The notes below the pieces were generated by a model. That model did not search any database and was not told the origin of the DNA. It saw nothing but the letters and a program-made list of their open reading frames with translations. From contig QHVE01000014.1 in NCBI GenBank assembly GCA_003223455.1, forward strand, positions 63,077 to 127,076: 64,000 bases of DNA. Direction: 5' to 3'. A program made the position numbers and the translations under genes. Below are positions 1,608 through 16,859 of this stretch, in pieces (the stretch's first letter is position 1; every line of letters starts with the position of its first letter). This stretch comes from Gemmatimonadota bacterium (GTDB taxonomy: Bacteria; Gemmatimonadota; Gemmatimonadetes; Gemmatimonadales; Gemmatimonadaceae).

Positions 1608-2891
1608 TCAACGCTGCGCGAAGTACGCGAGCGCGCCGGTGGAGGTGGGGATGTTCAGGCGGTACGTCTTGTTGAGCGCCGTCGCGGCCGCATCGGCCAG
1701 CACGCGCTGACCCTCTGCGCTCGGGTGGATCCCATCGAGGCTGATGTACGGCCCGTAGGGCTGCGCCGTCGTCATGATCGAGATCGCGTTGAATGCCGGC
1801 TTGGTGGCGGCGCCCTCGTAGAGTGCACCGAGGGGGAAGTACGCGAAACCACGCGTCTGGGCTTCGTCCTGGATCACCGCGTTCATCGCCGCGAGTTGCG
1901 TGTTCACCGCCGCGACGTCGGTGGCGTCGAGGATGTAATCCACGACGGGCGCCGGAGAGTTGGCGCAGCTCAGCGTGTACGGGCCGTAACCGTGTTCTCG
2001 GTAGAAGATGCCCGTTCCCACCGCGGTCGGTACGATGCGGGGCACGAACAGGAGATTCGTGCTGTTCTCGCAGTTGGCGGAGATGAGGACGTTGAACGGA
2101 GCGAACGTCGCGCTGGCATTCCAGAACTCCGCACCGGTACGGAAGGCGGGGAAGCTGCGCACGTCGTTCACGAGACCCACGAGCACGGCGTGCTTCGCCG
2201 CGGCATCGACCCGCGCGGCGACCTGACGATACTGCGGCTCCCAATAGGCGACCGGCACCACGTTCACGCCGGGAGCGTAGTACCCGTCCCGCGCACCCAG
2301 GATGTCGTTCCCGCCGAGCTCCACGGACACGATCTTCGGGTTCTGCGACTCCATCGCCGTCACCTGCGACTGGCCTGGAGCGAGCACGCGCGGATACTGC
2401 GTCGCGTGACCGGGGTCGGGGCTCTCCGGCGTAGCCGTGAGCGCCTGTCCGGTGCGCGCGCCGTCGATCGCGACGTTGCCCGCCGGCAGGACCACACCGG
2501 CCTCGTTCGGCATGCACTGCCGCAGTAGGAAGTCGAGACCCGCGCCCTCACCGCTGGTGCGCTGGCCGGTTGCGAGCGGCGCGCTGAACGGGGCCGAGCA
2601 CCCGGGGGCCTGAATCAATGGAAGCGACAGCTCGCGATGCGCGAGCCGGGCGAGCTGCGCCGGCCACGACGTCTGCTGGGTCGCGCCGTACACGCCATCG
2701 CTCTGCACACCCATGCTGATGCTGGTGCCGATCGCGACGTATCGCTGGAAGATGCCCTCACCTTCCGAGATGAGCTCCGTGGAGCCCTGAGCGATCGGCT
2801 GACGTGCTTCGGTCGGTGCGAACGAGTTGTCCGTGCAGGCGGCGAGGGCGACGACGGCGAGGACTGCGGAGGAGAGGAGACGGGCGTTCAT
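1608..2891 (-). CDS. SGNH/GDSL-family hydrolase lipoprotein
   Basis: From ORF 1608..2981(-). The start is taken at MNARLLSSAVLAVVALAACTDN, which has a lipobox (LAAC). SGNH blocks are present: AIGTSISMG (block I Ser), ELGGNDI (block III) and DGIHPS (block V Asp/His). Confidence 0.8.
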   Translation of the reverse strand: MNARLLSSAVLAVVALAACTDNSFAPTEARQPIAQGSTELISEGEGIFQRYVAIGTSISMGVQSDGVYGATQQTSWPAQLARLAHRELSLPLIQAPGCSAPFSAPLATGQRTSGEGAGLDFLLRQCMPNEAGVVLPAGNVAIDGARTGQALTATPESPDPGHATQYPRVLAPGQSQVTAMESQNPKIVSVELGGNDILGARDGYYAPGVNVVPVAYWEPQYRQVAARVDAAAKHAVLVGLVNDVRSFPAFRTGAEFWNASATFAPFNVLISANCENSTNLLFVPRIVPTAVGTGIFYREHGYGPYTLSCANSPAPVVDYILDATDVAAVNTQLAAMNAVIQDEAQTRGFAYFPLGALYEGAATKPAFNAISIMTTAQPYGPYISLDGIHPSAEGQRVLADAAATALNKTYRLNIPTSTGALAYFAQR

Positions 2892-3216
2892 GGTATGGCT
2901 CCGGTTGGATTTCCTGTCCGGCGCGGTGCGAGAGTGACCGCGACGTGCGTTGGAGGAGCGCCCTCCGCAGCGTGGGCACACAGTCGCATCGCGCCACGCT
3001 CCAGTCCGTAGTGAGAACGACGTAGACGCGCGACCAGATCGACGTAGAGCCGCGCATCTGTCGTCGTATTCAGCGCTTGCACCGCTGGTACGCGCTTCGG
3101 CTCCGCGCTCGTGGCGCCGGATACGTCATTCTCGACGCGCTGCTACGTACTCTGACGGATCGTTGGCCCCTCGCCGCCGCGGCACCATTCCTCGCGACCC
3201 TTCACCGGAGCGACGA

Positions 3217-4230
3217 GTGGACGCCAGACGGCACGCGATCGATGGACAGCCCGGCGCGACGGGGCCCAGCATCCGCGGGATCGCCTACGTGTATGCGTCG
3301 GCGTCGCGCACGGTGCGCGACCTGGCCGCGAGCGGCGCGCTCGAGAGCGACCCCGCCGTGCTGGAGGGGTTCGGGTTCGATCGCGTGCACGTGGCCGTCG
3401 AGGAGACTCCGTACGATCTCGCACTCACGGCCGCGGCCCGGCTGCTCGACGAGCAAGGAGTGGATCCGGCCAGCGTCGGTCTTCTCGTATACGCGGGCAC
3501 GCCCAGCGCCATGGCGTTCGCCGCCGCCTCGGATGCCGGCGCCGGCGCGGCGGCGCTCTGCACCGCCGACCGGTTTCGCTATCCGGTGACGCGGCTGCAG
3601 CACGAGCTCGGGCTCGAGCGCGCCGCCGTGCTCGCGCTCGATCAGCTGGCGTGCACCACACTCTTCGGAGCGATCCGCGTGGCGCGCGCGATGATGGCCG
3701 CCGAAGGAATCGATCGGGCGCTCTGCGTGGCGAGCGAGTTCTATCCGGCGCACGCCGGTCGCGAGGCCGTGTACAACTGCACCTCGGACGCGGCGTGCGC
3801 GCTCCTGCTCGACGCGACCGACGACGCAGACGCGCGCAACCGCATCGTCGGCGCCACTACCATATCGAAGGGCTACTACTGGGATCCGGAAGCGATGCGC
3901 GAGGAGGTAATCGCCTCGTACTTCCCCACCGCCGTGCACGCGATCGGTCGCGCGCTCTGCGATGCCGGCTGGCGCCCGGAGGACGTGGACTGGGTGATCC
4001 CGCACAACGTGAGCACGCGAAGCTGGGAGGTGCTGCTCCGCTTGATGCGGCTGCCCAACGCGAAGCTCTGGGCGCACAACATCCCCCGCCGCGGCCACAC
4101 GCTGTCCGGCGACAACTTCATCAACCTGCGCGACGCGATCGACGGCGGCGACGTGCGCCCCGGTCAGCGCGCACTCCTCTTCGCCTACGGTTACGGCGCA
4201 CACTGGACGGCGCTCGCCGTGGAGGCCTGA
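3217..4230 (+). CDS. 3-oxoacyl-ACP synthase III (FabH/KAS III)-like condensing enzyme or acyltransferase
   Basis: C-terminal ~337 codons of ORF 2950..4230. It has IRGIAYVYASASRTVRDL (a FabH-like N-terminus), the nucleophile Cys in DQLACTTLFGA and His in VIPHNVS. The position of the FabH GNT Asn reads GHT. The start is assigned to GTG 3217, preceded by GGAG 6 nt upstream. There is no in-frame ATG nearby, so the start is uncertain. Confidence 0.8.
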   Translation: MDARRHAIDGQPGATGPSIRGIAYVYASASRTVRDLAASGALESDPAVLEGFGFDRVHVAVEETPYDLALTAAARLLDEQGVDPASVGLLVYAGTPSAMAFAAASDAGAGAAALCTADRFRYPVTRLQHELGLERAAVLALDQLACTTLFGAIRVARAMMAAEGIDRALCVASEFYPAHAGREAVYNCTSDAACALLLDATDDADARNRIVGATTISKGYYWDPEAMREEVIASYFPTAVHAIGRALCDAGWRPEDVDWVIPHNVSTRSWEVLLRLMRLPNAKLWAHNIPRRGHTLSGDNFINLRDAIDGGDVRPGQRALLFAYGYGAHWTALAVEA

Positions 4231-4231
4231 C

Positions 4232-5386
4232 GTGTACACTTCAAATAGTCGCGTCGACCTCGGCGCCGCACACGGCGACGGTCACGTGCTCGTCACGGGT
4301 GCCACCGGTCTGCTCGGCGCCGAGCTCGTACGGCGCTGGGCGAAGGCCGGTACGGTGCGCCGCATCGCCGTGCTCGTGCGCGACCGCGCGCGGTGGGACG
4401 CGGTCGCGTGCCGCCTCGCCCTGTCGGACGATGCCGTCGTCGCGCTCGAGGGCGACGTCACGCGCGAAGGGCTGGGTCTCACGCACGACGCACGCACGTG
4501 GCTCGCGCGCCACGCCACCGCGATGGTGCACCTGGCGGCGGACACGACGTTCTCGCGCCCGCTCGACCAGGCGCGGCTCGTCAACCGCGACGGCACCGCG
4601 CACCTGCTCGCGCTCGCGGCCGACTGCCCGCGCGTCGCGCGCGTCGCCTTCGTCAGTACGGCGTTCGTCGCCGGTCGTCGCACCGGGATCGTCGCCGAAT
4701 CCGACGACGGCGCGGCCACGGCGCAGATCGGCTGGGTGAACGCCTACGAGCAATCGAAGGCGGAAGCGGAGGCGCTGGTGCGCTCGGCGCGCCGGGACTG
4801 GGTGATCCTGCGCTCGAGCACCATCGCCTGCGACGACACGAGTGGCGTGGTGACGCAGCGGAACGCGGTGCACCAGGCGCTTCGCCTCTTCCACGACGGC
4901 CTCGCCGCGATGATTCCCGGCGTGTCGGACTCGGTGCTCGACGTCGTGCCGGCGGACTACGTCGCCGACGCGATCGCCCGGCTCGCGCTGCGCCGCGATC
5001 TGGACGGCGCCACGGTGCAGCTCTGCGCGGGCGCGGGCGCGATGCCACTCGGCGAGCTGCTCGACGAGTGCTACGCGCGCTGGGCGACCGATGCGACCTG
5101 GCGGCGCCGGCGCATCGCTCCCCCGTCGCAGGGCGACCTCGAGACGTGGGAGATGTTCACGCAGGCGGTGGAGGAGACTGGGCATCCGCGGCTGCGCCGC
5201 GTCACGCGAGCGCTCGCGCACTTCCTGCCGCAGCTCGCGCTGCCCAAGCGCTTCGACACTCGACGCGCGGACGCACTGCTCGGCGCCGCCGCGCCGCCGG
5301 TGCACGAGTACTGGGGCCGCATGATCGACCACCTTCAGCAGACGGGCTGGCGCGGCGTGCCGGGCCTCGCGGAGGTGGCCGCATGA
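4232..5386 (+). CDS. thioester-reductase-type SDR (NAD_binding_4 / fatty-acyl reductase-like)
   Basis: Contains a Rossmann motif (VLVTGATGLLGAEL) and the catalytic YEQSK (YxxxK). Length and layout match NRPS/PKS terminal reductase and fatty acyl-CoA reductase domains. It starts (GTG) 1 nt after the KAS III stop. Confidence 0.8.
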   Translation: MYTSNSRVDLGAAHGDGHVLVTGATGLLGAELVRRWAKAGTVRRIAVLVRDRARWDAVACRLALSDDAVVALEGDVTREGLGLTHDARTWLARHATAMVHLAADTTFSRPLDQARLVNRDGTAHLLALAADCPRVARVAFVSTAFVAGRRTGIVAESDDGAATAQIGWVNAYEQSKAEAEALVRSARRDWVILRSSTIACDDTSGVVTQRNAVHQALRLFHDGLAAMIPGVSDSVLDVVPADYVADAIARLALRRDLDGATVQLCAGAGAMPLGELLDECYARWATDATWRRRRIAPPSQGDLETWEMFTQAVEETGHPRLRRVTRALAHFLPQLALPKRFDTRRADALLGAAAPPVHEYWGRMIDHLQQTGWRGVPGLAEVAA

Positions 5387-5664
5387 GTGGCGCGCACGTG
5401 GTGCTGTCGCGCGCGGCGCTCCTGTCCGAGCTACTGGCGTGGCTCAACCAACGCTTTGCGCCCGACGGTCCGTCCATCCGGGCCGACACGCCGCTCTTCG
5501 CGAGCGGCCTGCTCGACTCGCTGCGCATCCTCGAGCTCATCGCGTGGACCGAGCGCGCCATCGGGCGCGAGATCCCGGATGCCGCGATCCGCATGGACAA
5601 CTTCGCGACTCCGGCGCGCATCGCCGAGCTGTTCGCGACGGAGGATCGACATGCGCTCCGCTGA
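5383..5664 (+). CDS. small acyl/peptidyl carrier protein
   Basis: 93 aa: MSGAHVVLSRAALLSELLAWLNQRFAPDG...DTPLFASGLLDSLRILELIAWTERAIG..., with the phosphopantetheine-attachment motif (G)LLDSL. The ATG overlaps the reductase stop (ATGA at 5383-5386). Confidence 0.75.
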   Translation: MSGAHVVLSRAALLSELLAWLNQRFAPDGPSIRADTPLFASGLLDSLRILELIAWTERAIGREIPDAAIRMDNFATPARIAELFATEDRHALR

Positions 5665-6559
5665 CCGCGTCGTGACGGAGCTGCGCGCGCGCGGCGAGCT
5701 GTGGGAGGCGGCTCCCGGACTCGTCGGATTGCGCGGCGACACGCTCGTCCTCTACGAGCTGATCGAGCGTCTCGCCGCCGAGTCGGCGGGCGACGGCGTG
5801 TGCGAGCCGTGGCGTCCCCCTGCCGCGCTCGCGCTCTCGACGCTCGTGCGGGCACGCTACTTCGAGTCCTTCCCGCAGTGGCTCACGCTCGCCGCGCATC
5901 TGCGCGAAGATGCGGCCTCGCTGGAGCGCGTCGCTCGCAGCACCGACCCCGCCACGGACGCGTGCGACGCGTGCGCACCCGCCGACGCCGCGCTCCCGCC
6001 CGCCGTGTGCTATCACGTCTACGCCGCGCTCGCCGGTCGCGTGCTAGAACAACCGTTGCAGGTCACGACCCAGGGTACCTGCTGGCGCCACGAGGGCGAC
6101 GCGCTCCGCCCGCTCGCGCGCGGGTGGGCGTTCACGATGCGCGAAGGGGTGTGCCTCGGCGACGCCGACGTCGTCACCGCGTTCCGCGATCGCGGCATCG
6201 CCCGCGCGCGCACGCTCGCCGCGGCGCTCTCGCTCGATGCGCGGCTCGAGGAGGCGACGGATCCCTTCTTCCGCCCGACCGCGCGCGGCCGCGAGCTGCT
6301 GCAACGCGTGAAGGGACTGAAGCAGGAGCTTCGGCTCCCGGTGGGCGACGACACCGTCGCCGCGGCGTCGTTCAACCTGCACGAAGGCTTCTTCGGCCAG
6401 GCGTTCGACATCCGCCTCCCCGACGGCTCGCCCGCCGCGAGCGGCTGCGTGGCCTATGGCATCGAGCGCTGGCTCCTCGCGTTTCTCGCCGCGCATGGCA
6501 CGTCCGCCCGCGGCTGGCCCGCCGTTCCATCCATCCATCTTCCGGAGGCTGCCGCATGA
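5651..6559 (+). CDS. class-II aaRS (seryl-tRNA-synthetase catalytic core)-like amino acid--[carrier protein] ligase
   Basis: 302 aa starting MRSADRVVTELRARGELWEAAPGLVGLRGDTLVLYELIERL, with GGAGGA 5 nt upstream. Motif-2-like PPAVCYHVYAALAGRVLEQPLQVTTQGTCWRHEG and motif-3-like ASGCVAYGIERWLLAFLAAHG are present. There is no N-terminal tRNA-binding arm. It sits immediately downstream of, and overlapping, the carrier-protein gene. Confidence 0.75.
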   Translation: MRSADRVVTELRARGELWEAAPGLVGLRGDTLVLYELIERLAAESAGDGVCEPWRPPAALALSTLVRARYFESFPQWLTLAAHLREDAASLERVARSTDPATDACDACAPADAALPPAVCYHVYAALAGRVLEQPLQVTTQGTCWRHEGDALRPLARGWAFTMREGVCLGDADVVTAFRDRGIARARTLAAALSLDARLEEATDPFFRPTARGRELLQRVKGLKQELRLPVGDDTVAAASFNLHEGFFGQAFDIRLPDGSPAASGCVAYGIERWLLAFLAAHGTSARGWPAVPSIHLPEAAA

Positions 6560-7347
6560 CACTCCCACCTTCGGCGCTCGATCTCCATTCGTCCGCGCCG
6601 TCCGGCGCTTCACGCTCCGCGACGCCACGACCGGGCTACGTGCGCCTTGCCGCCGCCGCCGACCGCGGGCGGTGGTCGGTCGAGCGCGACGTGCGCTGGT
6701 CGTCCGTCGATCCGGCGCGCGCCCACGAGCGGTCCGACCTGCTCGCGCAGCTCTGCACCGCGGCACTCAGCGAGAGCTACCACCCGGTGCACCTCGGCTG
6801 GATGCTCCACGACACCTGGGACGACATCGACGCCGGCGCGGCGATCGCGTTCGAGCTGTACGAAGGGTTCAAGCACTTCCACGCGTTGCGCAGCTACCTC
6901 GACGCCGTCGGCTTCGAGCCGGCGATCACCGACGCGGAGCTCGTCGCCATTCGCGCCAATGCGCGCGCCGTCGGGCCCAAGGGCTCGCTCGTCGAGCGAC
7001 TCGTCGAGTTCATGCTCTCCGAGCATCTCGCGTCGTACTTCTTCCGTCGCATCGGCGAGCAGGCCACCGATGCGGTGCTGGCCGAGCTGCTCGCGTTCAT
7101 CGCCGCCGACGAGGTGCGCCACGCGCAAGCCGCGTCGGACCTGCTCGCCACGCGGATCGCCGCCGACCCATCGGTCGTGCCGACCGTGCTCGATGCGGCC
7201 GTCCACTTCCATCACTTCGGCGAGCAGGCCGTGCCCGACGTGCCGGTCGCGCTGCCAGGCGATCCGCTCGCCATCCGGTCGTTCACCCGCCGCATCGAGC
7301 GCCTCTGCGGCGTGCGTCTCGTCGATCACCTCAAGCGGCAGCTCTAG
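6556..7347 (+). CDS. ferritin-like di-iron (carboxylate-bridged) oxidase family protein
   Basis: 263 aa from MTLPPSALDL.... It is helical, with Glu/His-rich blocks (AFELYEGFKHFHAL, MLSEHLASYFF, IAADEVRHAQAA, AAVHFHHFGE) like di-iron oxygenase/desaturase four-helix bundles. The ATG overlaps the ligase stop (ATGA). Confidence 0.6.
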   Translation: MTLPPSALDLHSSAPSGASRSATPRPGYVRLAAAADRGRWSVERDVRWSSVDPARAHERSDLLAQLCTAALSESYHPVHLGWMLHDTWDDIDAGAAIAFELYEGFKHFHALRSYLDAVGFEPAITDAELVAIRANARAVGPKGSLVERLVEFMLSEHLASYFFRRIGEQATDAVLAELLAFIAADEVRHAQAASDLLATRIAADPSVVPTVLDAAVHFHHFGEQAVPDVPVALPGDPLAIRSFTRRIERLCGVRLVDHLKRQL

Positions 7348-7367
7348 CTGCGATCCCGGAGGGTCCC

Positions 7368-7907
7368 ATGGACATCACGTCGCGAGAGCTCGACTTCCTG
7401 AACTTCTATCGCGCCTCGGAGCTGCATGGAGGTCTCATCCTCGGCCAGGTCGCGCGCCGCGCGCGTGGCTCGGAGCTCGTGCTCGACCTCACGCGCCACA
7501 GCGCCGAGGAGGTGGTGCACGCTCAGCTCTGGACCGAGACGATCATCGCCGTCGGCGGCCAGGTCCGACCGGTGCGCGAGACCTACCAGGCCCGCTACGC
7601 GCGCTTCGTCGGCACGCCGATCGCGCTCGTCGAAGTCCTCGCGCTCACGCAGGTGTTCGAGCGCCGCGTGTACCGGCACTTCACCGAGCACCTGCACCGT
7701 CCCGCGACGCATTCCATCGTGCGCGTCACCCTCGCGCGAATGCTCGAGGAGGAGAAAGGACACCTCCGGTGGGTGAAGCGCTGGCTCGACGAGCAGGCGC
7801 GCGCGCGGGGCAGCGTGGTGGCCGACGCCCTCGCCCGGTACACGGAGGCCGATGCGCTGGTGTACGCCGAGATGACGGACGAGCTGGGATGGCGGGAGGC
7901 CGCATGA
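7368..7907 (+). CDS. ferritin-like di-iron domain protein
   Basis: 179 aa: MDITSRELDFLNFYRASELHGG.... It has two EXXH motifs (SAEEVVHAQ and LEEEKGHLRW) spaced as in four-helix-bundle di-iron proteins. It lies 20 nt after the preceding gene. Confidence 0.65.
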   Translation: MDITSRELDFLNFYRASELHGGLILGQVARRARGSELVLDLTRHSAEEVVHAQLWTETIIAVGGQVRPVRETYQARYARFVGTPIALVEVLALTQVFERRVYRHFTEHLHRPATHSIVRVTLARMLEEEKGHLRWVKRWLDEQARARGSVVADALARYTEADALVYAEMTDELGWREAA

Positions 7908-9016
7908 GCCTCCGCGTCTCGCTCCCCGGTGCGGTGCACGACCGGCTCTTCTTCGCGCAGGTGCGCGAGGACCCACGCGCGGAGCTCACGGCGTTGCACC
8001 CCGGACTCGACGACGACGTCGTGGTCGTCAGCTCGGGCGGCTGTACGGCGCTCTCGCTGCTCTCGGCGGGCGCTGGACGCGTGGTGGCGGTGGACCTGAA
8101 CGCCACGCAGAACCACCTCGTCGAGTTGAAGGCAGCGGCGGCGACGCTGGGCGCCCGCGAGGCGATCGCGTTTCTCGGCGCCCTCCCCTCGACGCGACGT
8201 CGTGAGACGTACGCGTCGCTGCGCGATGCGCTCAGCCCCGTCGCCCGACGCTACTGGGACAACCGCGCGAGCGTGGTGGAGGCCGGCGTGCTCCGTGCCG
8301 GCGTGAGCGAGCGGTTCATCGCCGGCGTCGTCGCCGCGCTCAAGCTCGTCGTGCATCCGACGGCGCGGGTGGAACGGCTGCTCGCCTGCCGCACGCTCGA
8401 CGAACAGCGCACGCTGTTCGAGCGCGAGTGGAGCACGCGGCGCTGGCGGGCGCTGTTCGCGCTGCTCTGCAACCGCGCGATGCTCCGAAACACGTATCCG
8501 GCGCAATTCTTCGAGCACGTCGAGAACCCGAGCTTCGCGCGGCACTTCCGTGATCTCGCCGAGCGCGCGATCACCGAGCTGCCGGTGTCGAGCAACTACT
8601 TCCTGCATCAGATGCTCGGCGGCCGGTACCCGGTGGAGGAACCGGATGGTGTGCCGCCGTATCTGAGCGAGCATGGTTCGGCCGCCGTCGCGTCGGCCCG
8701 CGAGCGCCTGGTGCTCGTCGACGGCAGCGTGACGGCGTACCTGCGCGCGCGTGCGCCGAACTCCGTCCACGTGTTCGCGCTGTCGAACATCTGCGAGTGG
8801 ATGACGCCGCGCGACGTGGACGCGCTGTTCCAGGAGGTGCTCCGCACGGCGGCGCCCGGCGCGCGGCTGGTCTATCGCAACTTCGTCGGCTGGACGGACC
8901 TCCCTGGTTGGTGCGAGCGCATCGTCCCCGACCACGAGCTGAGCACGCGGCTGAGCCGCGAGGACCGGAGCCTGATGCAGCGGCGCGTCGTGGCCTGCCG
9001 CGTGGAGGCCGCATGA
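7904..9016 (+). CDS. BtaA-like (DUF3419) S-adenosylmethionine-dependent 3-amino-3-carboxypropyl-transferase family protein
   Basis: 370 aa: MSLRVSLPGAVHDRLFFAQVREDPRAELTAL...VVVSSGGCTALSLLSAGAGRVVAVDLNATQNHL.... This is the N-terminal FAQV(W/R)EDP block plus a Rossmann-like SAM fold typical of DUF3419/BtaA. ATGA overlap with the upstream gene. Confidence 0.7.
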   Translation: MSLRVSLPGAVHDRLFFAQVREDPRAELTALHPGLDDDVVVVSSGGCTALSLLSAGAGRVVAVDLNATQNHLVELKAAAATLGAREAIAFLGALPSTRRRETYASLRDALSPVARRYWDNRASVVEAGVLRAGVSERFIAGVVAALKLVVHPTARVERLLACRTLDEQRTLFEREWSTRRWRALFALLCNRAMLRNTYPAQFFEHVENPSFARHFRDLAERAITELPVSSNYFLHQMLGGRYPVEEPDGVPPYLSEHGSAAVASARERLVLVDGSVTAYLRARAPNSVHVFALSNICEWMTPRDVDALFQEVLRTAAPGARLVYRNFVGWTDLPGWCERIVPDHELSTRLSREDRSLMQRRVVACRVEAA

Positions 9017-10143
9017 CGACCACGCTCGCTCCATCGCGCATCGCCGGTGCCGTGCGCGATGCGACTGCGGCCGACAACGATGCGCTCGTTGCGCTCGCCG
9101 AAGCGTGTCCGATGCGCGGCGACATCACGATGTGCGTCGATCGCGCCCCCGACTTCTTCGCGCTCGTGCGCCTGGAGGGAGAGCGGTGGCGCGTCGGAGT
9201 CGCCGAGGACGCCGGCGGCGTAGTGGGTTGCGTCGCGGCGTCCGAGCGCCTGGCGTACGTGAATGGCGCCGCTGCTCGCACGGCGTACGTCGGCGATCTC
9301 AAGGTGCATCCCACGCATCGTGGTGGCTTCGCCGCCGATGCACTGGAGGAGTTCTCCCGGGAGGCGGTACGCGGCTACGGCGGCGACGACATGCTGGCGC
9401 TCGTCACGGTGCTCGGAGGCAACAGCGCGATGGAACGCCGCGCCGTCGGACCCCGCGGGCTGCCGAGGCTCACGCGGTTCGCCACGCTGGACGTGCACGC
9501 CATCCCGTTGCTCTGGTCGCGCGCGGAGTGGGTCGCCGGCCTGCGCGTCGACGTGGCGCGCGAGCGTGACCTGGACGAGATGGGCGCGCTGTGGAATCGC
9601 GTCGCACCGGGACGGCAGCTGGCGCCGGTGCTCGGAGCCGCGCGGCTCAGTGCATGGATCGCCGACGCGCCCGGCCTCGCCGTCGAGGACTACCTCGTGG
9701 CGCGTCGCGCCGATGGCCGCATCGTCGGATTCCTCGCGCTCTGGGATCAGTATTTCATCAAGCAGCTTCGCGTCCTCGGCTACTCGACGCGGCTGGCCGC
9801 GGTGCGCGCGGCACTGAACGGGATCGCGCCGATCGCTCGCACGCCGAGGCTGCCCGCGGCGGGCGCCGTGCTGCCCTCGCTCGCCGTGCTCCACTGCTGT
9901 GTCGGCGGCGACGAGCCCGCGGTGCTTCGGGCGCTGATGCTCCACGCGTACGCCGCGCGCCGCGGCGCCGGCTATCTCTTTCTCAGCCTCGCGCTCGATC
10001 GGCGCGATCCGCTCCGCACCGCGCTGCGTGGTCTGCTCGCGCAGCCGACCGTCGTCGGCGCGTACGCCACGACGCCCGCTGGCCGATGGACGGGCGCTCC
10101 GCTCGATGGTCGTCCGCTGCACTTCGAGTCGGCACTCGTATGA
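9013..10143 (+). CDS. GNAT-family N-acyltransferase (two GNAT-like halves)
   Basis: 376 aa. The first half carries the acetyl/acyl-CoA motif A-like YVGDLKVHPTHRGGFAADAL. The second half (IVGFLALWDQYFIKQL...) resembles a degenerate GNAT repeat. ATGA overlap at both ends. Confidence 0.6.
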   Translation: MTTTLAPSRIAGAVRDATAADNDALVALAEACPMRGDITMCVDRAPDFFALVRLEGERWRVGVAEDAGGVVGCVAASERLAYVNGAAARTAYVGDLKVHPTHRGGFAADALEEFSREAVRGYGGDDMLALVTVLGGNSAMERRAVGPRGLPRLTRFATLDVHAIPLLWSRAEWVAGLRVDVARERDLDEMGALWNRVAPGRQLAPVLGAARLSAWIADAPGLAVEDYLVARRADGRIVGFLALWDQYFIKQLRVLGYSTRLAAVRAALNGIAPIARTPRLPAAGAVLPSLAVLHCCVGGDEPAVLRALMLHAYAARRGAGYLFLSLALDRRDPLRTALRGLLAQPTVVGAYATTPAGRWTGAPLDGRPLHFESALV

Positions 10144-12387
10144 CCGCGCGCGCCGGCACGCTCTGGCACGACCGGCTCGCACGATTCGTCGTGCGGCGGC
10201 GGCGGTGGCTGTGGGGCGCATGGGCGATTGCCGTCGTGCTGCTGCTGCCGCACGCGCGCGAGGCGAAAGCGCGGCTGGAGGTCGCCGCACGCGTACGAGG
10301 GAGCGAGTCCGAGATGGTCGCGCAGCTCCTCGCCGACCGCTTCGACTCGCCGTTCGCGCGCTCGGCCGTCGTCGTCGTCACGGGTGTTCCGCGGCCGGAC
10401 AGGCCCGCCGGCCGTGCCGCGCTGCGTGGGCTCGTCACCGCCGCGGCTCGCGTCCCCGGCGTCACGCGCACGCTCTCCTATCTCGACGTCCCCGACAGCG
10501 CCTTTCTCGGCGCCGGCTCCGGCACGTTCATCGTCGTCGGGCTGGATGGCCGGCGCACCTCCGGCGATTCGCTCGTGGCGCGCCTGCGCGCCGGTACCGC
10601 CGCGGCCGCGATGACGATCCGGGTCACACATCCCACCGCCGAAGTGATGGTGACGGGAGAGGATGCCCTCAACCACGACCTTCGCGCCGCGAGCGCACAC
10701 GACGTCTCGGCGGCGGAGCGTCGCGCGCTTCCGCTCACGCTCGTGCTCCTCCTGCTCGCCTTCGGCGCGGTGGTGGCGGCGTTGATCCCGCTCGGTGTCG
10801 GAGGCCTGGCGATCGGGCTCGCGCTGGGCGCGGCCGCGCTCGTCGCCCGTGTGTGGCCGCTCTCCATCGCTCTTCAGAACGTCGTCTCGATGCTCGGCCT
10901 CGGGCTCGGCGTGGACTACACCCTGCTGCTCGTGAGCCGCTTCCGCGAAGCACGCGCCATCGGCGCCGACGCCGAGCATGCGGCGGTGGAGGCGGCGACG
11001 CACGCGGGGCACAGCGTGATCGTGTCCGCCGCGACGGTGGCGGTGGGCTTCGCCGCGCTGCTCGCCGTCCCACTCGCCGACCTCCGCTCCATCGCCGCCG
11101 GGGGACTGCTCGTCGTCGTGGTTTCCGCGCTGCTCGCCGTCACGCTCGTACCCGGACTGCTCGCCTCGCTCGGTGCGCGCATCGAGATCGGGCGCGTGCT
11201 GCCGCGTGCACGTGGCGCGGCCGCGTCGCGCTGGCGCGGCTGGGCCGCCCGCGTGGCGCGACATCCCCTGCGCACGCTGGTCGGTGCCGGACTACCGCTC
11301 GTGCTGCTCGCCGCGCAGGCGACACGCCTGAAGCCCCAGCTTCCGCGCGGCGACTGGCTGCCACGCTCGGCCGAGGCGGCACGTGGCGCGCGTGCGCTGC
11401 GCGCCATGGGCAGCGGGGGCGTGGTGCAGACGGTGCGAATCGTCGTCGCGCTGCCAGCAGGCGCTCGCGCGCTCGACGACCGCGGCTACGTCGCGACCGC
11501 ACGCCTCGCGGCCGCGCTCGTGCGCGATCCGCGCGTGCGGCGCGTGCGCTCGCTGCCCGGCGTCGCCAACGGCGTGATGCCCCGCTCGCCCTTCTTCGCG
11601 CTCGTGTCCGACGACGTGCTGCGCTCGTTCGTGAGCCGCGACCAGCGACTCGCGCTGCTCGAGGTGGTTCCATCCGATGGCGCCGACGGCGCGGCGCTTC
11701 CCGCGCTCGCGCGCGACCTCCGGGCCATCGACGCGGGAGCCGTGAGCGGCGTCGACGGCACGCGGCTGCTCGTCGGTGGCGTGCCGGCACTCAACGCCGA
11801 CTACGCCGACGCCATCGCACGCCGCACTCCGCTCGTGGTCCTGCTCGTCGTCGGCGGGACGCTGCTCGCCCTTGCCGTCGGGTTCGAATCGATTCTCGTA
11901 CCGGTCAAGGCGGTCGCACTCAATCTCCTCACCGTCGGATCGGCGCTCGGTGTCGTCGTGCTGGTGTTCCAGGACGGGCACGGCGCCCGGCTGGTCGGGC
12001 TCTCGGCACCGCTCGACGGCACCTTCGCCGCCGTGCCGCTGCTCGTGTTCTGCATCGTGTTCGGCTTGAGCATGGACTACGAGGTCTTTCTGCTCTCGCG
12101 CGTCGCGGAGGCGAGGCGGCGCGGCGCATCCGAGGGCGCCGCACTCGTCGCGGGCGTGGGACATTCGGGGCGCGTGATCACCAGCGCCGCATCGATCATG
12201 GTGGTGGTGTTCGGTGCGTTCGCGCTCGGGGACTTCGTCCTCGTGAAGATCCTCGGCGTGGCGCTCGCCACCGCCGTCGTGCTCGACGCCACCCTCGTGC
12301 GCCTCGCCGTGGGACCGGCGCTCCTCGCGCTCGCGGGCCGCTGGAACTGGTGGCCCGGCTCGATCGTGTCCCACCGCGTTCCAAATC

Positions 12388-12426
12388 CGAATTCCGTCGT
12401 TGAAGAGGAAATGGAAACGGCATTCG
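12388..12426 (-). terminator. hairpin immediately downstream of the cfa stop (possible terminator in the convergent junction)
   Basis: CGAATTCCGT (12388-12397) and ACGGCATTCG (12417-12426) pair at 9 of 10 positions around a 19-nt loop. This is a locally AT-richer patch. There is no strong U-tract. Confidence 0.3.
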
Positions 12427-13814
<1,388 letters not shown>

Positions 13815-13818
<4 letters not shown>

Positions 13819-16800
13819 GATGCCAGTAGTCCCTGCCTCCGCGCTACGTCGGCCAGCTCGCCGCGTGAGGCTACCTCGAGCTTGAGGAAGATGCTCGAGA
13901 GATGGGTGCTCACGGTCCGGGGCGAGATGCCGAGCGCCGAGGCGATCTCCTTGTTCGACTTGCGCGCGGCGACGAGGCGCGCCACGTCCACCTCGCGCCC
14001 GGTGAGCGCGCCGACGCCGGCGAGCGGCGCCTTCGCCGGCGGCCGCAGGCCGAGCTCGCGGATCACGTCGCGCGTGATCGAGAGCTCCACCTCGGCGCGC
14101 ATACGGAGGAACGCGTCGTGCGCGCGGCGCAGCTCGCGCGTCGCGCCCTCGAGATCGCCGAGCTTCGCGAGCACCCACGCCAGCTTGCGGCGAACGCGTG
14201 CGGCATCGATCAGCCACGGGATCGCCTCGAGCGCCTCGGCGCTCTGCCGGAGCAGGGGCGCGGCGGTCTCGTAGTCCTTGCGCAGCATCGCGATCAGGCC
14301 GTCACAGGTGTCGGCCCACGCGATGCCGAGTCGGTGTCCGAGCTGCAGCGAATCCCTCCGCAGCCGCGCCTCGTAGCGACGCGCCAGCTCGAGATCGCCC
14401 AGCCAGAGCGCGGCTTCGATCGTCATCGGCAGCAGCCGGTGGATCCCCCAGGCCACGTACCCGGTGCGATCGACGAGCGCGAGCCCCGCGTCGCCGATCT
14501 CGATCGCGCGCCGATAGTCGCCCGTCGCCACGTGATAGGCCACGAACCCGGCGTGCACCGGCACCGCCGAGTGCACGTCCGCCACGCGCAGCACGCTCTT
14601 GTCGCCCGTCGAGAGCCTCCACGCTTCGTCGAGATACTCCTTCGCCTGCGCCGTGGCGCCGCGATGCAGGTGGATCATCGCCGCCCACACGAGCAGTCGC
14701 GGCAGCAGCACGCGCTGCCGCAGCGCACGCGCCATCGGGATCGTCCGCTCGGCGAGCGCGAGCCCCGCGTCCCAGTCACCCGTGCCCGAGTGCAGCTCGA
14801 CGGCGATCTCCGCGGTCCAGCAACGCAGCACCGGCGAGCCCAGCGCGTCCGCCAGGCGCTCGCTCTCGGCAAGGTGCCGCGCCATCGCGCCGCTGTTGCC
14901 GGACAGCCCTCCCACCATCGCCATCGCCCAGTGGGCCGACCAGGCAACGCCGCGTTCCCCCGCGGACTCCGCGAGCTCGATGGCGCGCATGCCGTCGGCG
15001 TGCGCTCGCTCGGTGGGCCCGATGAAGACGTGCAGCAGCTGTGACGAGCGATGCACGCGCGCCAGCACTCCCGCGTCGCCGAGTCGCTCGGCCACGGCGA
15101 GGGCGGCGTCGATCTCCGCGCGCGCGTCGTCCGGCTTGCCGAGCGCCTGCAGCGTCATCGCCCGCGCGACTCGCGTGCGGGCCAGCAGTGAGTCGTGACC
15201 CGCATGCTCGGCGGCGGCCAGCGACACGTCGAAGTGGGCGAGCGCCTCTTCGTATTGGGTGCTCCAGAAGGCGCCGAGCCCGAGCCGACGCTCGATCGCG
15301 GCGACTCGCACCGCGTCGCCCGCCCGCTCGGCGGCCGTGCGCGCGCGCGTCCACAGCGCCTTCGCGGCGTCATAGTCGCCCAACCGCTGCCGCGCCTGGG
15401 CGAGATCCTCCACGAGCGCGTCGGGATCCACCGTCGGCGCGTCGAGCGGGCCGGCGCGATCGAGATGCTCCAGCGCCGAGTTCAGGTAGTTGGCCGCCTC
15501 GCGGTTGGCGTAGCGGGCGAGCGCGTCGCGACCCGCGGCCGCGAGATAGCGCACCGCCTTGGCCGCCAGGCCGCGCGTCTCCGCACGCGAGAAGTGGTAC
15601 GCCAGCTCGTCGGCGTGCGCGTCGGCCTCGGCGCCGTACAGCGTCTCGAGCGCCTCCGCGACCGTGGCGTGCAGCAGGCGTCCCCGCGCGATCCCGAGCT
15701 CGCCGTACAGCACGTCGCGCACGAGCGGATGCGCGAACTCGTAGGTGATGCCGCCGTCGCTCTGCACCTCTTCCGAGACCGCGTTCTGTGCACGGAGCTC
15801 GTCGAGCGCGGTGAGGACGTCGCTCTCCGTCAGGCCGCTCACGGCGACGAGGGCATCGTGCGACGTCCGCGTGCCGATCACCGCCGCGAGGTTCGCGATG
15901 GTGCGCGCCGCGGCGCCCAGCCGGTTCACGCGTGCCGTCACCGCGTCACGGATCGAGCGCGGCAGGCCGGGCAGCTCGGCCTCCCACCCGTGCCACGTCC
16001 CATTCTGCTCGTGCAGCGCGCCCGATTCCACGAGCGCCTTGAGCACCTCTTCGACGAAGAACGGATTGCCGCGCGTCCAGGAATAGAGACGGCCCGCGAG
16101 CGTGCGGGCCGAGGCGGCATCGGCGTGGAACGCCTCGCGCACCAGCTCCTGCAGTGCGTCCGCGCCGAGCGGCTCGAGTCGCATGAGGCGCGCCGCCCCC
16201 AGCGAGAGCAGCGATTGCTCCGTCGTGCGCAGCGTCGGGTTCGCGTCGAGCTCCGACTCGTTGTACGTGCAGAGAAGCGCCACGCGCTCGCTGCCGATCT
16301 GCCGCGCCACGAAGTGGAGCAGCTCGAGCGACGAGCTGTCGGCCCACTGCAGGTTCTCCAGCACGAGCAGGATCGGCCGCTGCGTCGCGAGCTGGCCGAG
16401 GAACTGGGTGAAGCTCCAGAGCAGCCGCGACTTCACGTCGCCCCCCTCGCGCGAGGCCGGCGTATGGGGCGAGGTGGAAAAAGCGGGACAGATGTTGGCG
16501 AGCGTGCTCGCATCGCCGCGCGTCATCACCGCGAGCGCCGCCGGTGTCAGGCCACGCAGCACGGCGGTGAGCGCGTCGGCGAACACCGCGTACGGCACCC
16601 CCGTCTCCACGGGATAGGCGCGGCCGACGGTGACGGTCCAGCCCTGGCGGGCGGCGCGCTCGGCGATCGCACCGACGAGCCTCGTCTTGCCCACACCGCC
16701 GACGCCGGCGAGGAGCGTGGTCCCCCCACGGCCGGCGGCGGCCTCCTCGAGCCACCCTTCGAGGGCGGCGACCTCGTTGTCGCGACCGACGAGTGGAAGC

Positions 16801-16859
16801 GGGAACGGGCCGCGTCCGCGCGACCCGCTCTCTACGGCTCTGGCAGTCGTTGCCTGCAT
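13815..16859 (-). CDS. LAL-type transcriptional regulator (AAA+/STAND ATPase - TPR-like - LuxR HTH)
   Basis: 1014 aa, with Walker A LLAGVGGVGKTRL, a long helical repeat middle region, and a C-terminal LuxR/FixJ HTH (LTGREVDVARLVAARKSNKEIASALGISPRTVSTHLSSIFLKLEV). Confidence 0.85.

What the first reader, a model, noticed from the sequence alone, without database searches (positions are those of the whole stretch)
5383..6559. Carrier protein plus tRNA-arm-less SerRS-like ligase with an apparent Cys/Glu/Cys zinc-site pattern
Seen in sequence: a 93-aa protein with an LLDSL phosphopantetheine motif overlaps by 14 nt a 302-aa protein. That protein carries class-II aaRS motif 2-like (QGTCWRHEG) and motif 3-like (GCVAYGIERWLLAFLAAHG) blocks but has no N-terminal coiled-coil tRNA-binding arm. 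Cys in AVCYHVY, Glu in WRHEG and Cys in SGCVAYG fall where methanogen-type SerRS and the described aa:CP ligases place their Zn ligands. This alignment was done by eye.

Established knowledge: that zinc site selects the amino-acid substrate in those enzymes.

Inference: this is a dedicated amino-acid loading module, and its amino-acid specificity is unknown.
Basis: partly seen in the sequence, partly recalled or inferred. Interest (0 to 1): 0.7.

Follow-up and report, generated by a model that had tools for sequence, protein, structure and literature searches.

The report
Amino-acid:carrier-protein ligase in lipid-type operon
A small carrier protein and a tRNA-synthetase-derived enzyme that most likely loads an amino acid onto it are real, belong to a known but functionally unexplained family, and sit in a nine-gene operon conserved across Gemmatimonadota that looks like a pathway for an exported amino-acid-derived lipid.

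Summary
A 93-aa carrier protein (5383-5664) overlaps by 14 nt a 302-aa protein (5651-6559). That protein is a divergent member of the amino acid:[carrier protein] ligase family, whose solved example is Bll0957 of Bradyrhizobium (PDB 3MEY). It matches 3MEY at E 4.7e-39. Its predicted fold matches 4H2S/3MEY at TM 0.78, followed by methanogen-type SerRS. Motifs 2 and 3 are present and there is no tRNA-binding domain.

The zinc triad is conserved, but it is C120/E165/C266.

The pair is the core of a translationally coupled operon: KASIII-like, thioester reductase, carrier protein, ligase, two diiron proteins, a BtaA-like DUF3419 protein, an N-myristoyltransferase-like tandem GNAT, and an MMPL exporter. 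Gene order is kept in 48 non-redundant Gemmatimonadota loci.

My reading is an NRPS-independent loading and reductive-release module feeding an exported N-acylated amino-acid-derived lipid. The loading step is well supported by homology. The product is inferred. The ligase is a new member of a known kind, and the operon gives that family a testable biological role.

The parts
3217..4230 (+). Gene A: KASIII (FabH)-like thiolase-fold enzyme, 337 aa, with a Cys-His-His triad
   Evidence: It hits PF08541 at E 2.3e-16 and FabH structures at E 2e-9. The positions of FabH C112/H244/N274 are C/H/H in all 43 homologs. The start is GTG 3217 behind GGAG, and the homolog in L001 is 337 aa. The gene lies immediately upstream in 44 of 44 loci that reach that far.
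4232..5386 (+). Gene B: stand-alone thioester reductase (extended SDR), 384 aa
   Evidence: It hits PF07993 at E 1.1e-42 and the TIGR01746 thioester-reductase domain at E 9.6e-32. The closest solved structure is the MxaA terminal reductase, E 5e-15. TGATGLLG and YEQSK motifs are present. Its stop overlaps the carrier-protein start.
5383..5664 (+). Gene C: 93-aa carrier protein; Ppant Ser46 at 5518-5520
   Evidence: It hits PF00550 at E 1.9e-7. The closest solved chains are the CcbZ and DltC carrier proteins. The serine is kept in all 49 tblastn-matched homologs, in the context [DNST]-S-[LIM].
5651..6559 (+). Gene D: amino acid:[carrier protein] ligase homolog, 302 aa. Zinc ligands are C120 (6008-6010), E165 (6143-6145) and C266 (6446-6448). 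Motif 2 is R146/E148 and motif 3 is R273.
   Evidence: Supported. The AF2 model has pLDDT 82.6. The Foldseek top hits are 4h2s/3mey at E 1e-24 and TM 0.78, followed by 3w3s and 2cim.
6556..7347 (+). Gene E: ferritin-like diiron protein, acyl-ACP-desaturase-like, 263 aa
   Evidence: A profile of 25 orthologs matches DesA2 (1za0) at E 1.3e-9. Weak Pfam hits are MiaE_2 and FA_desaturase_2. E100, E103, H107, E156, E186 and H189 are invariant.
7368..7907 (+). Gene E2: small four-helix-bundle diiron protein, 179 aa
   Evidence: The frame plot shows a coding frame here that the ORF list obscured. The start is ATG 7368 behind GGAGGG. E18, E47, E48, H51, E129 and H132 are invariant (E98 nearly so), giving two ExxH motifs. 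Similarity to Rubrerythrin, COQ7 and symerythrin is weak. The gene is present in 43 loci.
7904..9016 (+). Gene F: DUF3419 protein, the BtaA family of SAM-dependent 3-amino-3-carboxypropyl transferases, 370 aa
   Evidence: It hits PF11899 at E 2.8e-63, full length. DUF3419 is the BtaA/BTA1 betaine-lipid synthase family (PMC10685587).
9013..10143 (+). Gene G: tandem-GNAT acyltransferase with an N-myristoyltransferase-like fold, 376 aa
   Evidence: Pfam GNAT hits cover only residues 51-113. The AF2 model has pLDDT 91.4. All 50 Foldseek matches listed are N-myristoyltransferases, at E 1e-14 and TM about 0.6 over the full length.
10140..12509 (+). Gene H: MMPL/RND-type exporter, 789 aa
   Evidence: It hits PF03176 at E 7.5e-61. 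NCBIfam hits are MmpL3, HpnN and HAE3 models, all below their cutoffs. It is the last gene of the operon in 28 loci.

Best explanation
Genes C and D form a two-protein amino-acid loading module of the aa:CP ligase type. The ligase is a class II aaRS catalytic core without a tRNA-binding domain. It binds an alpha-amino acid through an active-site zinc held by C120, E165 and C266. It activates the amino acid with ATP as an aminoacyl-adenylate (motif 2 R146/E148, motif 3 R273). It then transfers the amino acid to the phosphopantetheine thiol on Ser46 of the carrier protein encoded just upstream.

In this lineage the module is the core of a nine-gene operon. Together with the stand-alone thioester reductase it is functionally equivalent to an NRPS A-T-R module.

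My proposed pathway is inferred, not shown:
1. The aminoacyl-S-CP, probably carrying a small residue such as Gly, is N-acylated with a long-chain acyl group by the N-myristoyltransferase-like tandem GNAT.
2. The tethered intermediate is oxidised or desaturated by the acyl-ACP-desaturase-like diiron protein or proteins, and possibly extended or O-acylated by the KASIII-like enzyme.
3. The thioester reductase releases it as an aldehyde or alcohol.
4. The BtaA-like enzyme decorates it with a 3-amino-3-carboxypropyl (homoserine) group from SAM.
5. The MMPL transporter moves it to the envelope.
For: Loading module:
- The ligase matches Bll0957 (3mey) at E 4.7e-39, or 9.9e-51 with a family profile.
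- It matches NF005479 at E 9.5e-50.
- The best fold match is the Gly:[CP] ligase-CP complex 4h2s, E 1e-24, TM 0.78.
- C120, E165, C266, R273 and the SFNxH block are invariant across 36 sequences that include Bll0957 and a methanogen SerRS; the motif-2 residues R146 and E148 are nearly invariant (at least 90%).
- The carrier-protein serine is kept in all 49 matched homologs.
- The carrier-protein gene lies directly upstream of the ligase in 47 of 48 loci; the exception is a locus cut at the contig end.
- The segment that differs between native and CP-engineered Bll0957 (3mey versus 4h2w) aligns to ligase residues about 207-224. That segment holds the family-invariant G213, Q218, K221, L223 and K224.

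Operon:
- Start/stop overlaps run from gene B to gene H.
- Order and strand of all nine genes are kept across Gemmatimonadota species genomes. No gene was missing in more than 5 loci where DNA was available.
- Four neighbours belong to families that act on carrier-protein thioesters: KASIII-like, thioester reductase (nearest to MxaA, which releases an amino alcohol), an acyl-ACP-desaturase-like diiron protein, and a GNAT.
- Gene G has a full-length N-myristoyltransferase fold, and that enzyme N-acylates a glycine amine with a C14 acyl-CoA.
- Gene F is in the BtaA family.
- Gene H is a lipid-type RND exporter.
- A 2022 review states that the biological role of aa:CP ligases is unknown (PMC9437257).
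Against: - No biochemistry exists for any protein of this clade.
- The ligase scores 169 bits against the NF005479 curated cutoff of 357 and is only 31-34% identical to Bll0957. Substrate and acceptor could therefore differ.
- I could not measure Cys/Glu/Cys distances in the model because no coordinates were available, so zinc binding rests on alignment alone.
- The carrier protein is not detectably related to the Bradyrhizobium cognate CP at E <= 0.1.
- The order of steps, the acyl donor, the role of the KASIII-like enzyme and the final product are all inferred from family names.
- Gene G's link to the ligase is by operon only. The ligase-GNAT fusion P0212 carries an unrelated GNAT.
- Relatives in Chloroflexota sit in glycan-type clusters. 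The module is therefore portable, and the family alone does not imply a lipid product.
Confidence: 0.8

Rival explanations
1. The carrier protein mainly carries a fatty acyl or polyketide chain that is handled by the KASIII-like enzyme, the desaturase-like diiron protein and the reductase. The SerRS-like enzyme aminoacylates a different acceptor, such as a small thiol like CoA, a lipid hydroxyl or amine, or the finished product.
For: Genes A, B and E resemble FabH, fatty acyl/thioester reductases and acyl-ACP desaturase. The carrier protein shows no detectable similarity to the Bradyrhizobium aa:CP-ligase partner. Bll0957 has been crystallised with CoA (3pzc, listed).
Against: The carrier protein and ligase are adjacent in all loci examined and their genes overlap in the window, the same pairing as in the characterised systems. 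No acyl-ACP synthetase, FAAL or acyltransferase that could load a fatty acid on the carrier protein is in the operon. The putative CP-docking segment of the ligase is conserved.
Confidence: 0.12
2. The module supplies an aminoacyl starter unit. The KASIII-like enzyme takes the aminoacyl group from the carrier protein and condenses it with malonyl-ACP. This starts an amino-terminated fatty or polyketide chain, which is later reduced and exported. It is a variant of the best explanation with a different order of steps and a different product.
For: The Cys-His-His triad is intact and invariant, consistent with a condensing rather than purely acyl-transferring KAS. Gene A is the first gene of the operon in all 44 loci that extend far enough.
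Against: The operon holds no further elongation enzymes such as KR, DH, ER or a second ACP. The N-myristoyltransferase-like fold of gene G points to attachment of a ready-made long acyl chain.
Confidence: 0.2
3. The product is not a membrane lipid but a secreted amphiphilic metabolite, such as a lipophilic metallophore or signal. It would be made by A-T-R-like logic plus diiron N- or C-oxygenation, analogous to pvf/ham-type pathways or acylated siderophores exported by MmpL proteins.
For: The combination of an A-T-R equivalent with diiron oxygenases resembles the pvf and ham clusters; that comparison is from my own knowledge and was not tested. MMPL proteins also export siderophores. A LAL-type regulator lies next to the operon here and in L001.
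Against: The diiron proteins match acyl-ACP desaturase-type rather than AurF-type N-oxygenases. A BtaA-family enzyme and a neighbouring cyclopropane-fatty-acid synthase fit membrane-lipid chemistry. The cluster is near-universal in the sampled clade, which is more typical of envelope biosynthesis.
Confidence: 0.15
4. The 302-aa ORF is a decayed or truncated seryl-tRNA synthetase, or another non-catalytic aaRS paralog, and the neighbouring small ORF is coincidental.
For: JGI annotates members as 'seryl-tRNA synthetase'. The Pfam tRNA-synt_2b hit is below its threshold, 22.1 against 29.3 bits.
Against: All catalytic and zinc residues are invariant at 60-90% overall identity across dozens of species. 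The coding signal is strong. The full-length fold is confidently predicted. Synteny with the carrier protein is strict. The library of 50%-identity cluster representatives holds 1,259 such representatives at E <= 1e-10.
Confidence: 0.02

Closest known systems
Amino acid:[carrier protein] ligases Bll0957/Bll6282 (Bradyrhizobium) and Atu2573 (Agrobacterium); PDB 3MEY, 3MF1, 4H2S; NCBIfam NF005479
   Same: Both have a truncated class II aaRS core derived from methanogen-type SerRS, with no tRNA-binding domain. Both have a Cys/Glu/Cys zinc site and motifs 2 and 3. In both, a dedicated small carrier protein is encoded next door. This is the best sequence and fold match.
   Different: Identity is only 31-34%, and the score is below the curated family cutoff (169 against 357 bits). 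The N-terminus is shorter. The carrier protein is not recognisably the same subfamily. The gene context is different, strongly conserved and lipid-like. Specificity is untested.
Methanogen-type seryl-tRNA synthetase (M. barkeri 2CIM, M. kandleri 3W3S)
   Same: Same catalytic fold (TM 0.78-0.82 normalised to the query) and the same three zinc-ligand positions.
   Different: It lacks the ~230-residue N-terminal tRNA-binding part. It has Ala rather than Gly at Cys266+2. It scores far below the SerRS model cutoffs (59.6 against 489 bits). Its expected acceptor is a carrier protein, not tRNA.
NRPS A-T-R termination/loading modules (for example the MxaA reductase of myxalamid synthetase, or PvfC-type A-T-R enzymes)
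   Same: It works the same way: activate an amino acid, tether it as a thioester on a Ppant arm, and release it reductively. Gene B's nearest solved relative is the MxaA reductase domain.
   Different: The three functions are separate proteins. The adenylating enzyme is an aaRS-class II fold rather than an ANL-superfamily A domain. There is no condensation domain.
BtaA/BtaB betaine-lipid pathway (DGTS synthesis)
   Same: Gene F is a full-length DUF3419/BtaA-family protein. BtaA transfers the 3-amino-3-carboxypropyl group of SAM to a lipid hydroxyl (PMC10685587).
   Different: There is no BtaB-type N-methyltransferase in the operon. The acceptor here would be the reductase product rather than diacylglycerol. 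This is inference.
DltA/DltC D-alanyl carrier protein system
   Same: It is also a stand-alone ligase that charges a small dedicated carrier protein with an amino acid for envelope modification. The carrier protein here weakly resembles DltC.
   Different: DltA is an ANL adenylating enzyme, unrelated in fold to the ligase here. The downstream enzymes (DltB, DltD) are absent.

Membership tests
Amino acid:[carrier protein] ligase (aa:CP ligase; Bll0957 type) | Class II aaRS catalytic core with motif 2 (fRxE) and motif 3 (GxGxGxxR-type Arg) | tested here: met
   R146/E148 and G270/R273 lie in conserved columns. The Foldseek top hits are 4h2s/3mey at TM 0.78, followed by class II SerRS and ProRS.
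Amino acid:[carrier protein] ligase (aa:CP ligase; Bll0957 type) | No tRNA-binding domain | tested here: met
   The protein is 302 aa in total. Alignments to methanogen SerRS begin at chain residue about 234-243 of 527.
Amino acid:[carrier protein] ligase (aa:CP ligase; Bll0957 type) | Active-site zinc held by Cys/Glu/Cys | tested here: met
   C120, E165 and C266 align to the ligand positions of Bll0957 and M. barkeri SerRS and are invariant. This was tested at sequence level only. Metal content and 3-D clustering could not be measured.
Amino acid:[carrier protein] ligase (aa:CP ligase; Bll0957 type) | Adjacent gene for a dedicated carrier protein with a Ppant serine | tested here: met
   There is a 14-nt overlap and a PF00550 hit. 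The serine and the adjacency are conserved.
Amino acid:[carrier protein] ligase (aa:CP ligase; Bll0957 type) | Score at or above the curated NCBIfam NF005479 equivalog cutoff | tested here: not met
   The score is 169.3 bits against a cutoff of 357. NCBI accordingly calls it 'hypothetical protein'. It is therefore a divergent clade and not an equivalog of the characterised enzymes.
Amino acid:[carrier protein] ligase (aa:CP ligase; Bll0957 type) | ATP-dependent aminoacylation of the holo-CP thiol; no tRNA charging | not testable with these tools
   This requires enzyme assays.
Methanogen-type seryl-tRNA synthetase | N-terminal tRNA-binding domain, and a score above the TIGR00415 / NF002120 cutoffs | tested here: not met
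   Scores are 59.6 and 68.7 bits against cutoffs of 489 and 611, and only the C-terminal catalytic half aligns.
NRPS A-T-R module | ANL-superfamily adenylation domain fused to T and R domains | tested here: not met
   There is no AMP-binding domain in the operon, and the T and R functions are separate proteins. This is functional analogy only.
BtaA (gene F) | Full-length DUF3419/PF11899 domain | tested here: met
   E 2.8e-63 over profile positions 8-376 of 385. Catalytic activity and acceptor were not testable.
N-myristoyltransferase-like tandem GNAT (gene G) | Two GNAT halves in one chain with the N-myristoyltransferase topology | tested here: inconclusive
   The fold match is E 1e-14 with TM about 0.6 and 15% identity. 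No significant Pfam NMT hit was found for gene G itself. I treat it as similar in fold, not as a family member.

The most novel reading that the evidence does not exclude
The nine-gene operon 3217-12509 encodes a previously undescribed route to an envelope lipid that is independent of both tRNA and NRPS. In this route an aaRS-derived ligase loads an amino acid on a carrier protein, and an N-myristoyltransferase-like enzyme N-acylates it while it is tethered. It is then oxidised, reductively released and homoserine-etherified by a BtaA homolog, and finally exported by an MMPL pump. That would be the first physiological role assigned to aa:CP ligases and a new lipid class characteristic of Gemmatimonadota.
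Probability: 0.25. Interest if true: 0.75.

Novelty: new member of a known kind. Interest (0 to 1): 0.5.

Why it matters
aa:CP ligases were described in 2010 as a link between ribosomal and non-ribosomal amino-acid activation. A 2022 review still lists their biological role as unknown (PMC9437257). In this clade the ligase-carrier protein pair is locked into a strictly conserved operon with recognisable downstream chemistry (reductase, acyltransferase, diiron oxidases, BtaA-like transferase) and an MMPL exporter. That turns 'what are these enzymes for?' into a concrete experiment. It also points to an unknown, possibly abundant, envelope lipid in Gemmatimonadota.

The clade is also inconsistently annotated. 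NCBI calls these proteins 'hypothetical protein' and JGI calls them 'seryl-tRNA synthetase'.

Tried and rejected
- The primary papers (Mocibob 2010 PNAS; Bilokapic 2006 EMBO J) are not in the library. No held paper lists the zinc-ligand numbers. I verified my recalled numbers indirectly through the tag-offset arithmetic on two independent PDB chains.
- Full-text searches for aa:CP ligases in characterised gene clusters found nothing beyond reviews.
- The weak carrier-protein hit to 'ACP_for_OlsHI' (21 bits against a cutoff of 130) was checked against the OlsH paper and review. OlsH is a GH3-like enzyme and is unrelated.
- The ~95-aa N-terminal extension of the ~390-aa relatives is not a fused carrier protein. 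It has no PP-binding hit and no DSL motif.
- The ligase-GNAT fusion P0212 does not contain an ortholog of gene G.
- There is no riboswitch or other Rfam element in the operon leader.
- The first locus search with the 36-sequence alignment failed because no stretch was conserved enough. A 12-sequence alignment worked.
- My first synteny pass missed gene A because of a frame error in my own coordinates; I corrected it.
- No cultured organism could be identified among close homologs.
- I could not measure inter-residue distances in the AF2 model because coordinates are not exposed.
Full report
**1. The observation**

The window has about 70% G+C, so long spurious ORFs abound. I therefore used GC3 frame plots to define genes.

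- ATG 5383 to TGA 5664 gives a 93-aa protein containing LLDSL.
- ATG 5651 to TGA 6559 gives a 302-aa protein.
- The two genes overlap by 14 nt, and both frames carry the strong GC3 signal of real genes.
- The small protein passes the Pfam PP-binding threshold, E 1.9e-7 and 31.7 bits against 20.8. It most resembles stand-alone peptidyl/D-alanyl carrier proteins such as CcbZ and DltC.

**2. Identity of the 302-aa protein**

- It matches the NCBIfam model for amino acid--[acyl-carrier-protein] ligase (NF005479) at E 9.5e-50, and methanogen-type SerRS models much more weakly.
- Against solved structures the best hit is Bll0957 of Bradyrhizobium (3mey and related entries, 'Amino acid--[acyl-carrier-protein] ligase 1') at E 4.7e-39 over residues 26-291. 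Next comes M. kandleri type-2 SerRS at 2e-11. A family profile raises these to 9.9e-51 and 1.5e-20.
- An AlphaFold2 model (pLDDT 82.6, pTM 0.85) finds the Gly:[carrier protein] ligase-CP complex 4h2s and the other Bll0957 entries first (E 1e-24, TM 0.78). M. kandleri and M. barkeri SerRS follow, then ordinary SerRS and ProRS.
- Alignments to the methanogen enzymes begin only around residue 234-243 of 527, so the tRNA-binding part is absent.

**3. The zinc site: one correction**

In a 36-sequence alignment that includes Bll0957 and M. kandleri SerRS, the invariant residues include C120, E165, C266 and R273. R146 and E148 (motif 2) are nearly invariant.

In the HMMER alignments C120, E165 and C266 pair with chain residues 151, 196 and 299 of 3mey and with 326, 375 and 481 of 2cim. 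Both chains are 20 residues longer than the native proteins. These therefore correspond to Cys131/Glu176/Cys279 and Cys306/Glu355/Cys461, which are the published zinc ligands as I recall them. The primary papers are not in the library. Two independently remembered triplets both map exactly, which makes a memory error very unlikely.

The zinc Glu is thus E165 in FTMRE, on the strand after the motif-2 loop. The conclusion that an intact Cys/Glu/Cys site exists stands. I could not measure distances in the model.

**4. Surroundings**

The pair sits in a tightly packed plus-strand operon with start/stop overlaps.

| Gene | Coordinates | Assignment | Main evidence |
|---|---|---|---|
| A | 3217-4230 | KASIII-like | FabH positions C112/H244/N274 read Cys/His/His in all 43 homologs |
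| B | 4232-5386 | Stand-alone thioester reductase | TGxxGxxG and YxxxK present; nearest solved structure is the MxaA terminal reductase |
| C | 5383-5664 | Carrier protein | see section 1 |
| D | 5651-6559 | Ligase | see sections 2 and 3 |
| E | 6556-7347 | Diiron protein | ortholog profile matches the acyl-ACP desaturase homolog DesA2 at E 1.3e-9 |
| E2 | 7368-7907 | Small diiron protein, 179 aa, two ExxH motifs | found only through the frame plot |
| F | 7904-9016 | Full-length DUF3419 protein | the BtaA betaine-lipid synthase family |
| G | 9013-10143 | Tandem GNAT, 376 aa | confident model (pLDDT 91.4); all 50 Foldseek matches listed are N-myristoyltransferases, E 1e-14 |
| H | 10140-12509 | MMPL exporter | |

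The flanks carry three minus-strand genes: a GDSL lipase, a cyclopropane-fatty-acid synthase and a LAL-type regulator. No riboswitch precedes the operon.

**5. Relatives**

- The window's ligase is 100% identical to a 'hypothetical protein' of a Gemmatimonadetes MAG. JGI labels relatives 'seryl-tRNA synthetase'.
- In the library of 50%-identity cluster representatives the family has 1,794 hits at E <= 1e-3 and 286 at E <= 1e-30.
- A scan of one genome per species returned at least 566 loci. The best 80 comprise about 46 Gemmatimonadota loci (48-79% identity) and about 34 mostly Chloroflexota loci (about 38%).
- Across 48 non-redundant Gemmatimonadota loci, each gene was found on the same strand and the same side wherever the contig extends that far:

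| Gene | Loci where found | Loci with DNA present but no match |
|---|---|---|
| A | 44 | 0 |
| B | 47 | 0 |
| C | 47 | 1 |
| E | 46 | 0 |
| E2 | 43 | 2 |
| F | 36 | 4 |
| G | 33 | 3 |
| H | 28 | 5 |

- The carrier-protein serine is present in all 49 tblastn-matched homologs.
- One variant adds a PPTase and a radical-SAM/SPASM enzyme and lacks E2.
- The Chloroflexota relatives carry an extra ~95-aa N-terminal domain. They lie in glycan-type clusters with none of these neighbours. The ligase module is therefore portable between pathways.

**6. Mechanism**

Shown by homology: a zinc-dependent class II adenylating core paired with its own carrier protein. This is the architecture for which aminoacylation of the Ppant thiol has been demonstrated in Bradyrhizobium and Agrobacterium (summarised in PMC9437257).

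Inferred: with gene B the system is a dissociated equivalent of an NRPS A-T-R module. Gene G would N-acylate the tethered amino acid with a long acyl chain. Genes E and E2 would oxidise or desaturate the tethered intermediate. Gene A would condense or transfer an acyl group. Gene B would release an aldehyde or alcohol. Gene F would add a homoserine-type head group from SAM. Gene H would export the product.

Hints at a small amino acid such as Gly are weak:
- Ala at Cys266+2, as in the Gly-specific Bll0957, whereas the two methanogen SerRS have Gly there.
- The N-myristoyltransferase-like partner.

Rival readings are listed separately with their refutation tests. They are a carrier protein that carries a plain acyl chain, an aminoacyl starter unit for KASIII, a secreted metallophore or signal, and a decayed SerRS.

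**7. Comparison with known systems, and novelty**

The ligase meets the structural definition of an aa:CP ligase: fold, no tRNA domain, zinc triad, adjacent carrier protein. It falls below the curated equivalog cutoff (169 against 357 bits) and is 31-34% identical to Bll0957. I therefore file it as a new, divergent member of a known kind and not as an equivalog.

Recent aminolipid and ornithine-lipid reviews mention no carrier-protein- or aaRS-based amino-acid loading and no Gemmatimonadota pathway. The 2022 aaRS-paralog review states that the role of aa:CP ligases is unknown. The conserved operon is therefore the more interesting result, but its product is hypothesis only.

**8. Verdict**

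- Interest is moderate (0.5). The protein family itself is no surprise, but the context is conserved and testable and could finally give the family a function.

Noticed in passing
L076 9475-9714 and 9707-10894 (Chloroflexia MAG); also L050-L083: The ligase relatives in Chloroflexota are about 38% identical and about 390 aa long, with an extra ~95-aa N-terminal domain that has no Pfam hit. They sit in glycan-type clusters (capsule synthesis, GT2, cytidylyltransferase, GNAT, Antibiotic_NAT). Each is preceded, with start/stop overlap, by a 79-aa ACP-like ORF that reads 'WDLLGH' where the Ppant serine should be.
   Followed up: partly
P0212 (743 aa, metagenomic protein): This is a natural fusion of an aa:CP-ligase-like domain (with the N-terminal extension) to a C-terminal GNAT region. 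That GNAT is not orthologous to window gene G.
   Followed up: yes
L002/L003 7078-17191: A variant of the cluster in other Gemmatimonadota has a PPTase-like gene (ACPS, faint hit) upstream of KASIII. It lacks the small diiron gene E2 and has an extra radical SAM/SPASM gene before the MMPL gene.
   Followed up: no
window 7368-7907: A 179-aa diiron four-helix-bundle gene (two ExxH motifs) is hidden inside longer spurious ORFs in the mechanical ORF list. It was recognised only from the GC3 frame plot.
   Followed up: yes
window 3217-4230: The KASIII-like enzyme has a Cys-His-His triad where FabH has Cys-His-Asn. This is invariant in 43 homologs and is unusual for the FabH fold.
   Followed up: partly
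window 12427-14217 (-) and 13815-16859 (-); 1608-2981 (-): A cyclopropane-fatty-acid synthase and a large LAL-type regulator (AAA_16-TPR-GerE) lie directly downstream of the operon on the opposite strand, and a GDSL lipase lies upstream. The regulator is also next to the cluster in L001. The two minus-strand ORFs overlap as listed, so the true start of the CFA synthase is probably near 13700.
   Followed up: no
window 5651-6559 and homologs P0001-P0120: Annotation is inconsistent. NCBI calls the protein 'hypothetical protein' and JGI calls homologs 'seryl-tRNA synthetase'. Neither reflects the aa:CP ligase relationship.
   Followed up: yes
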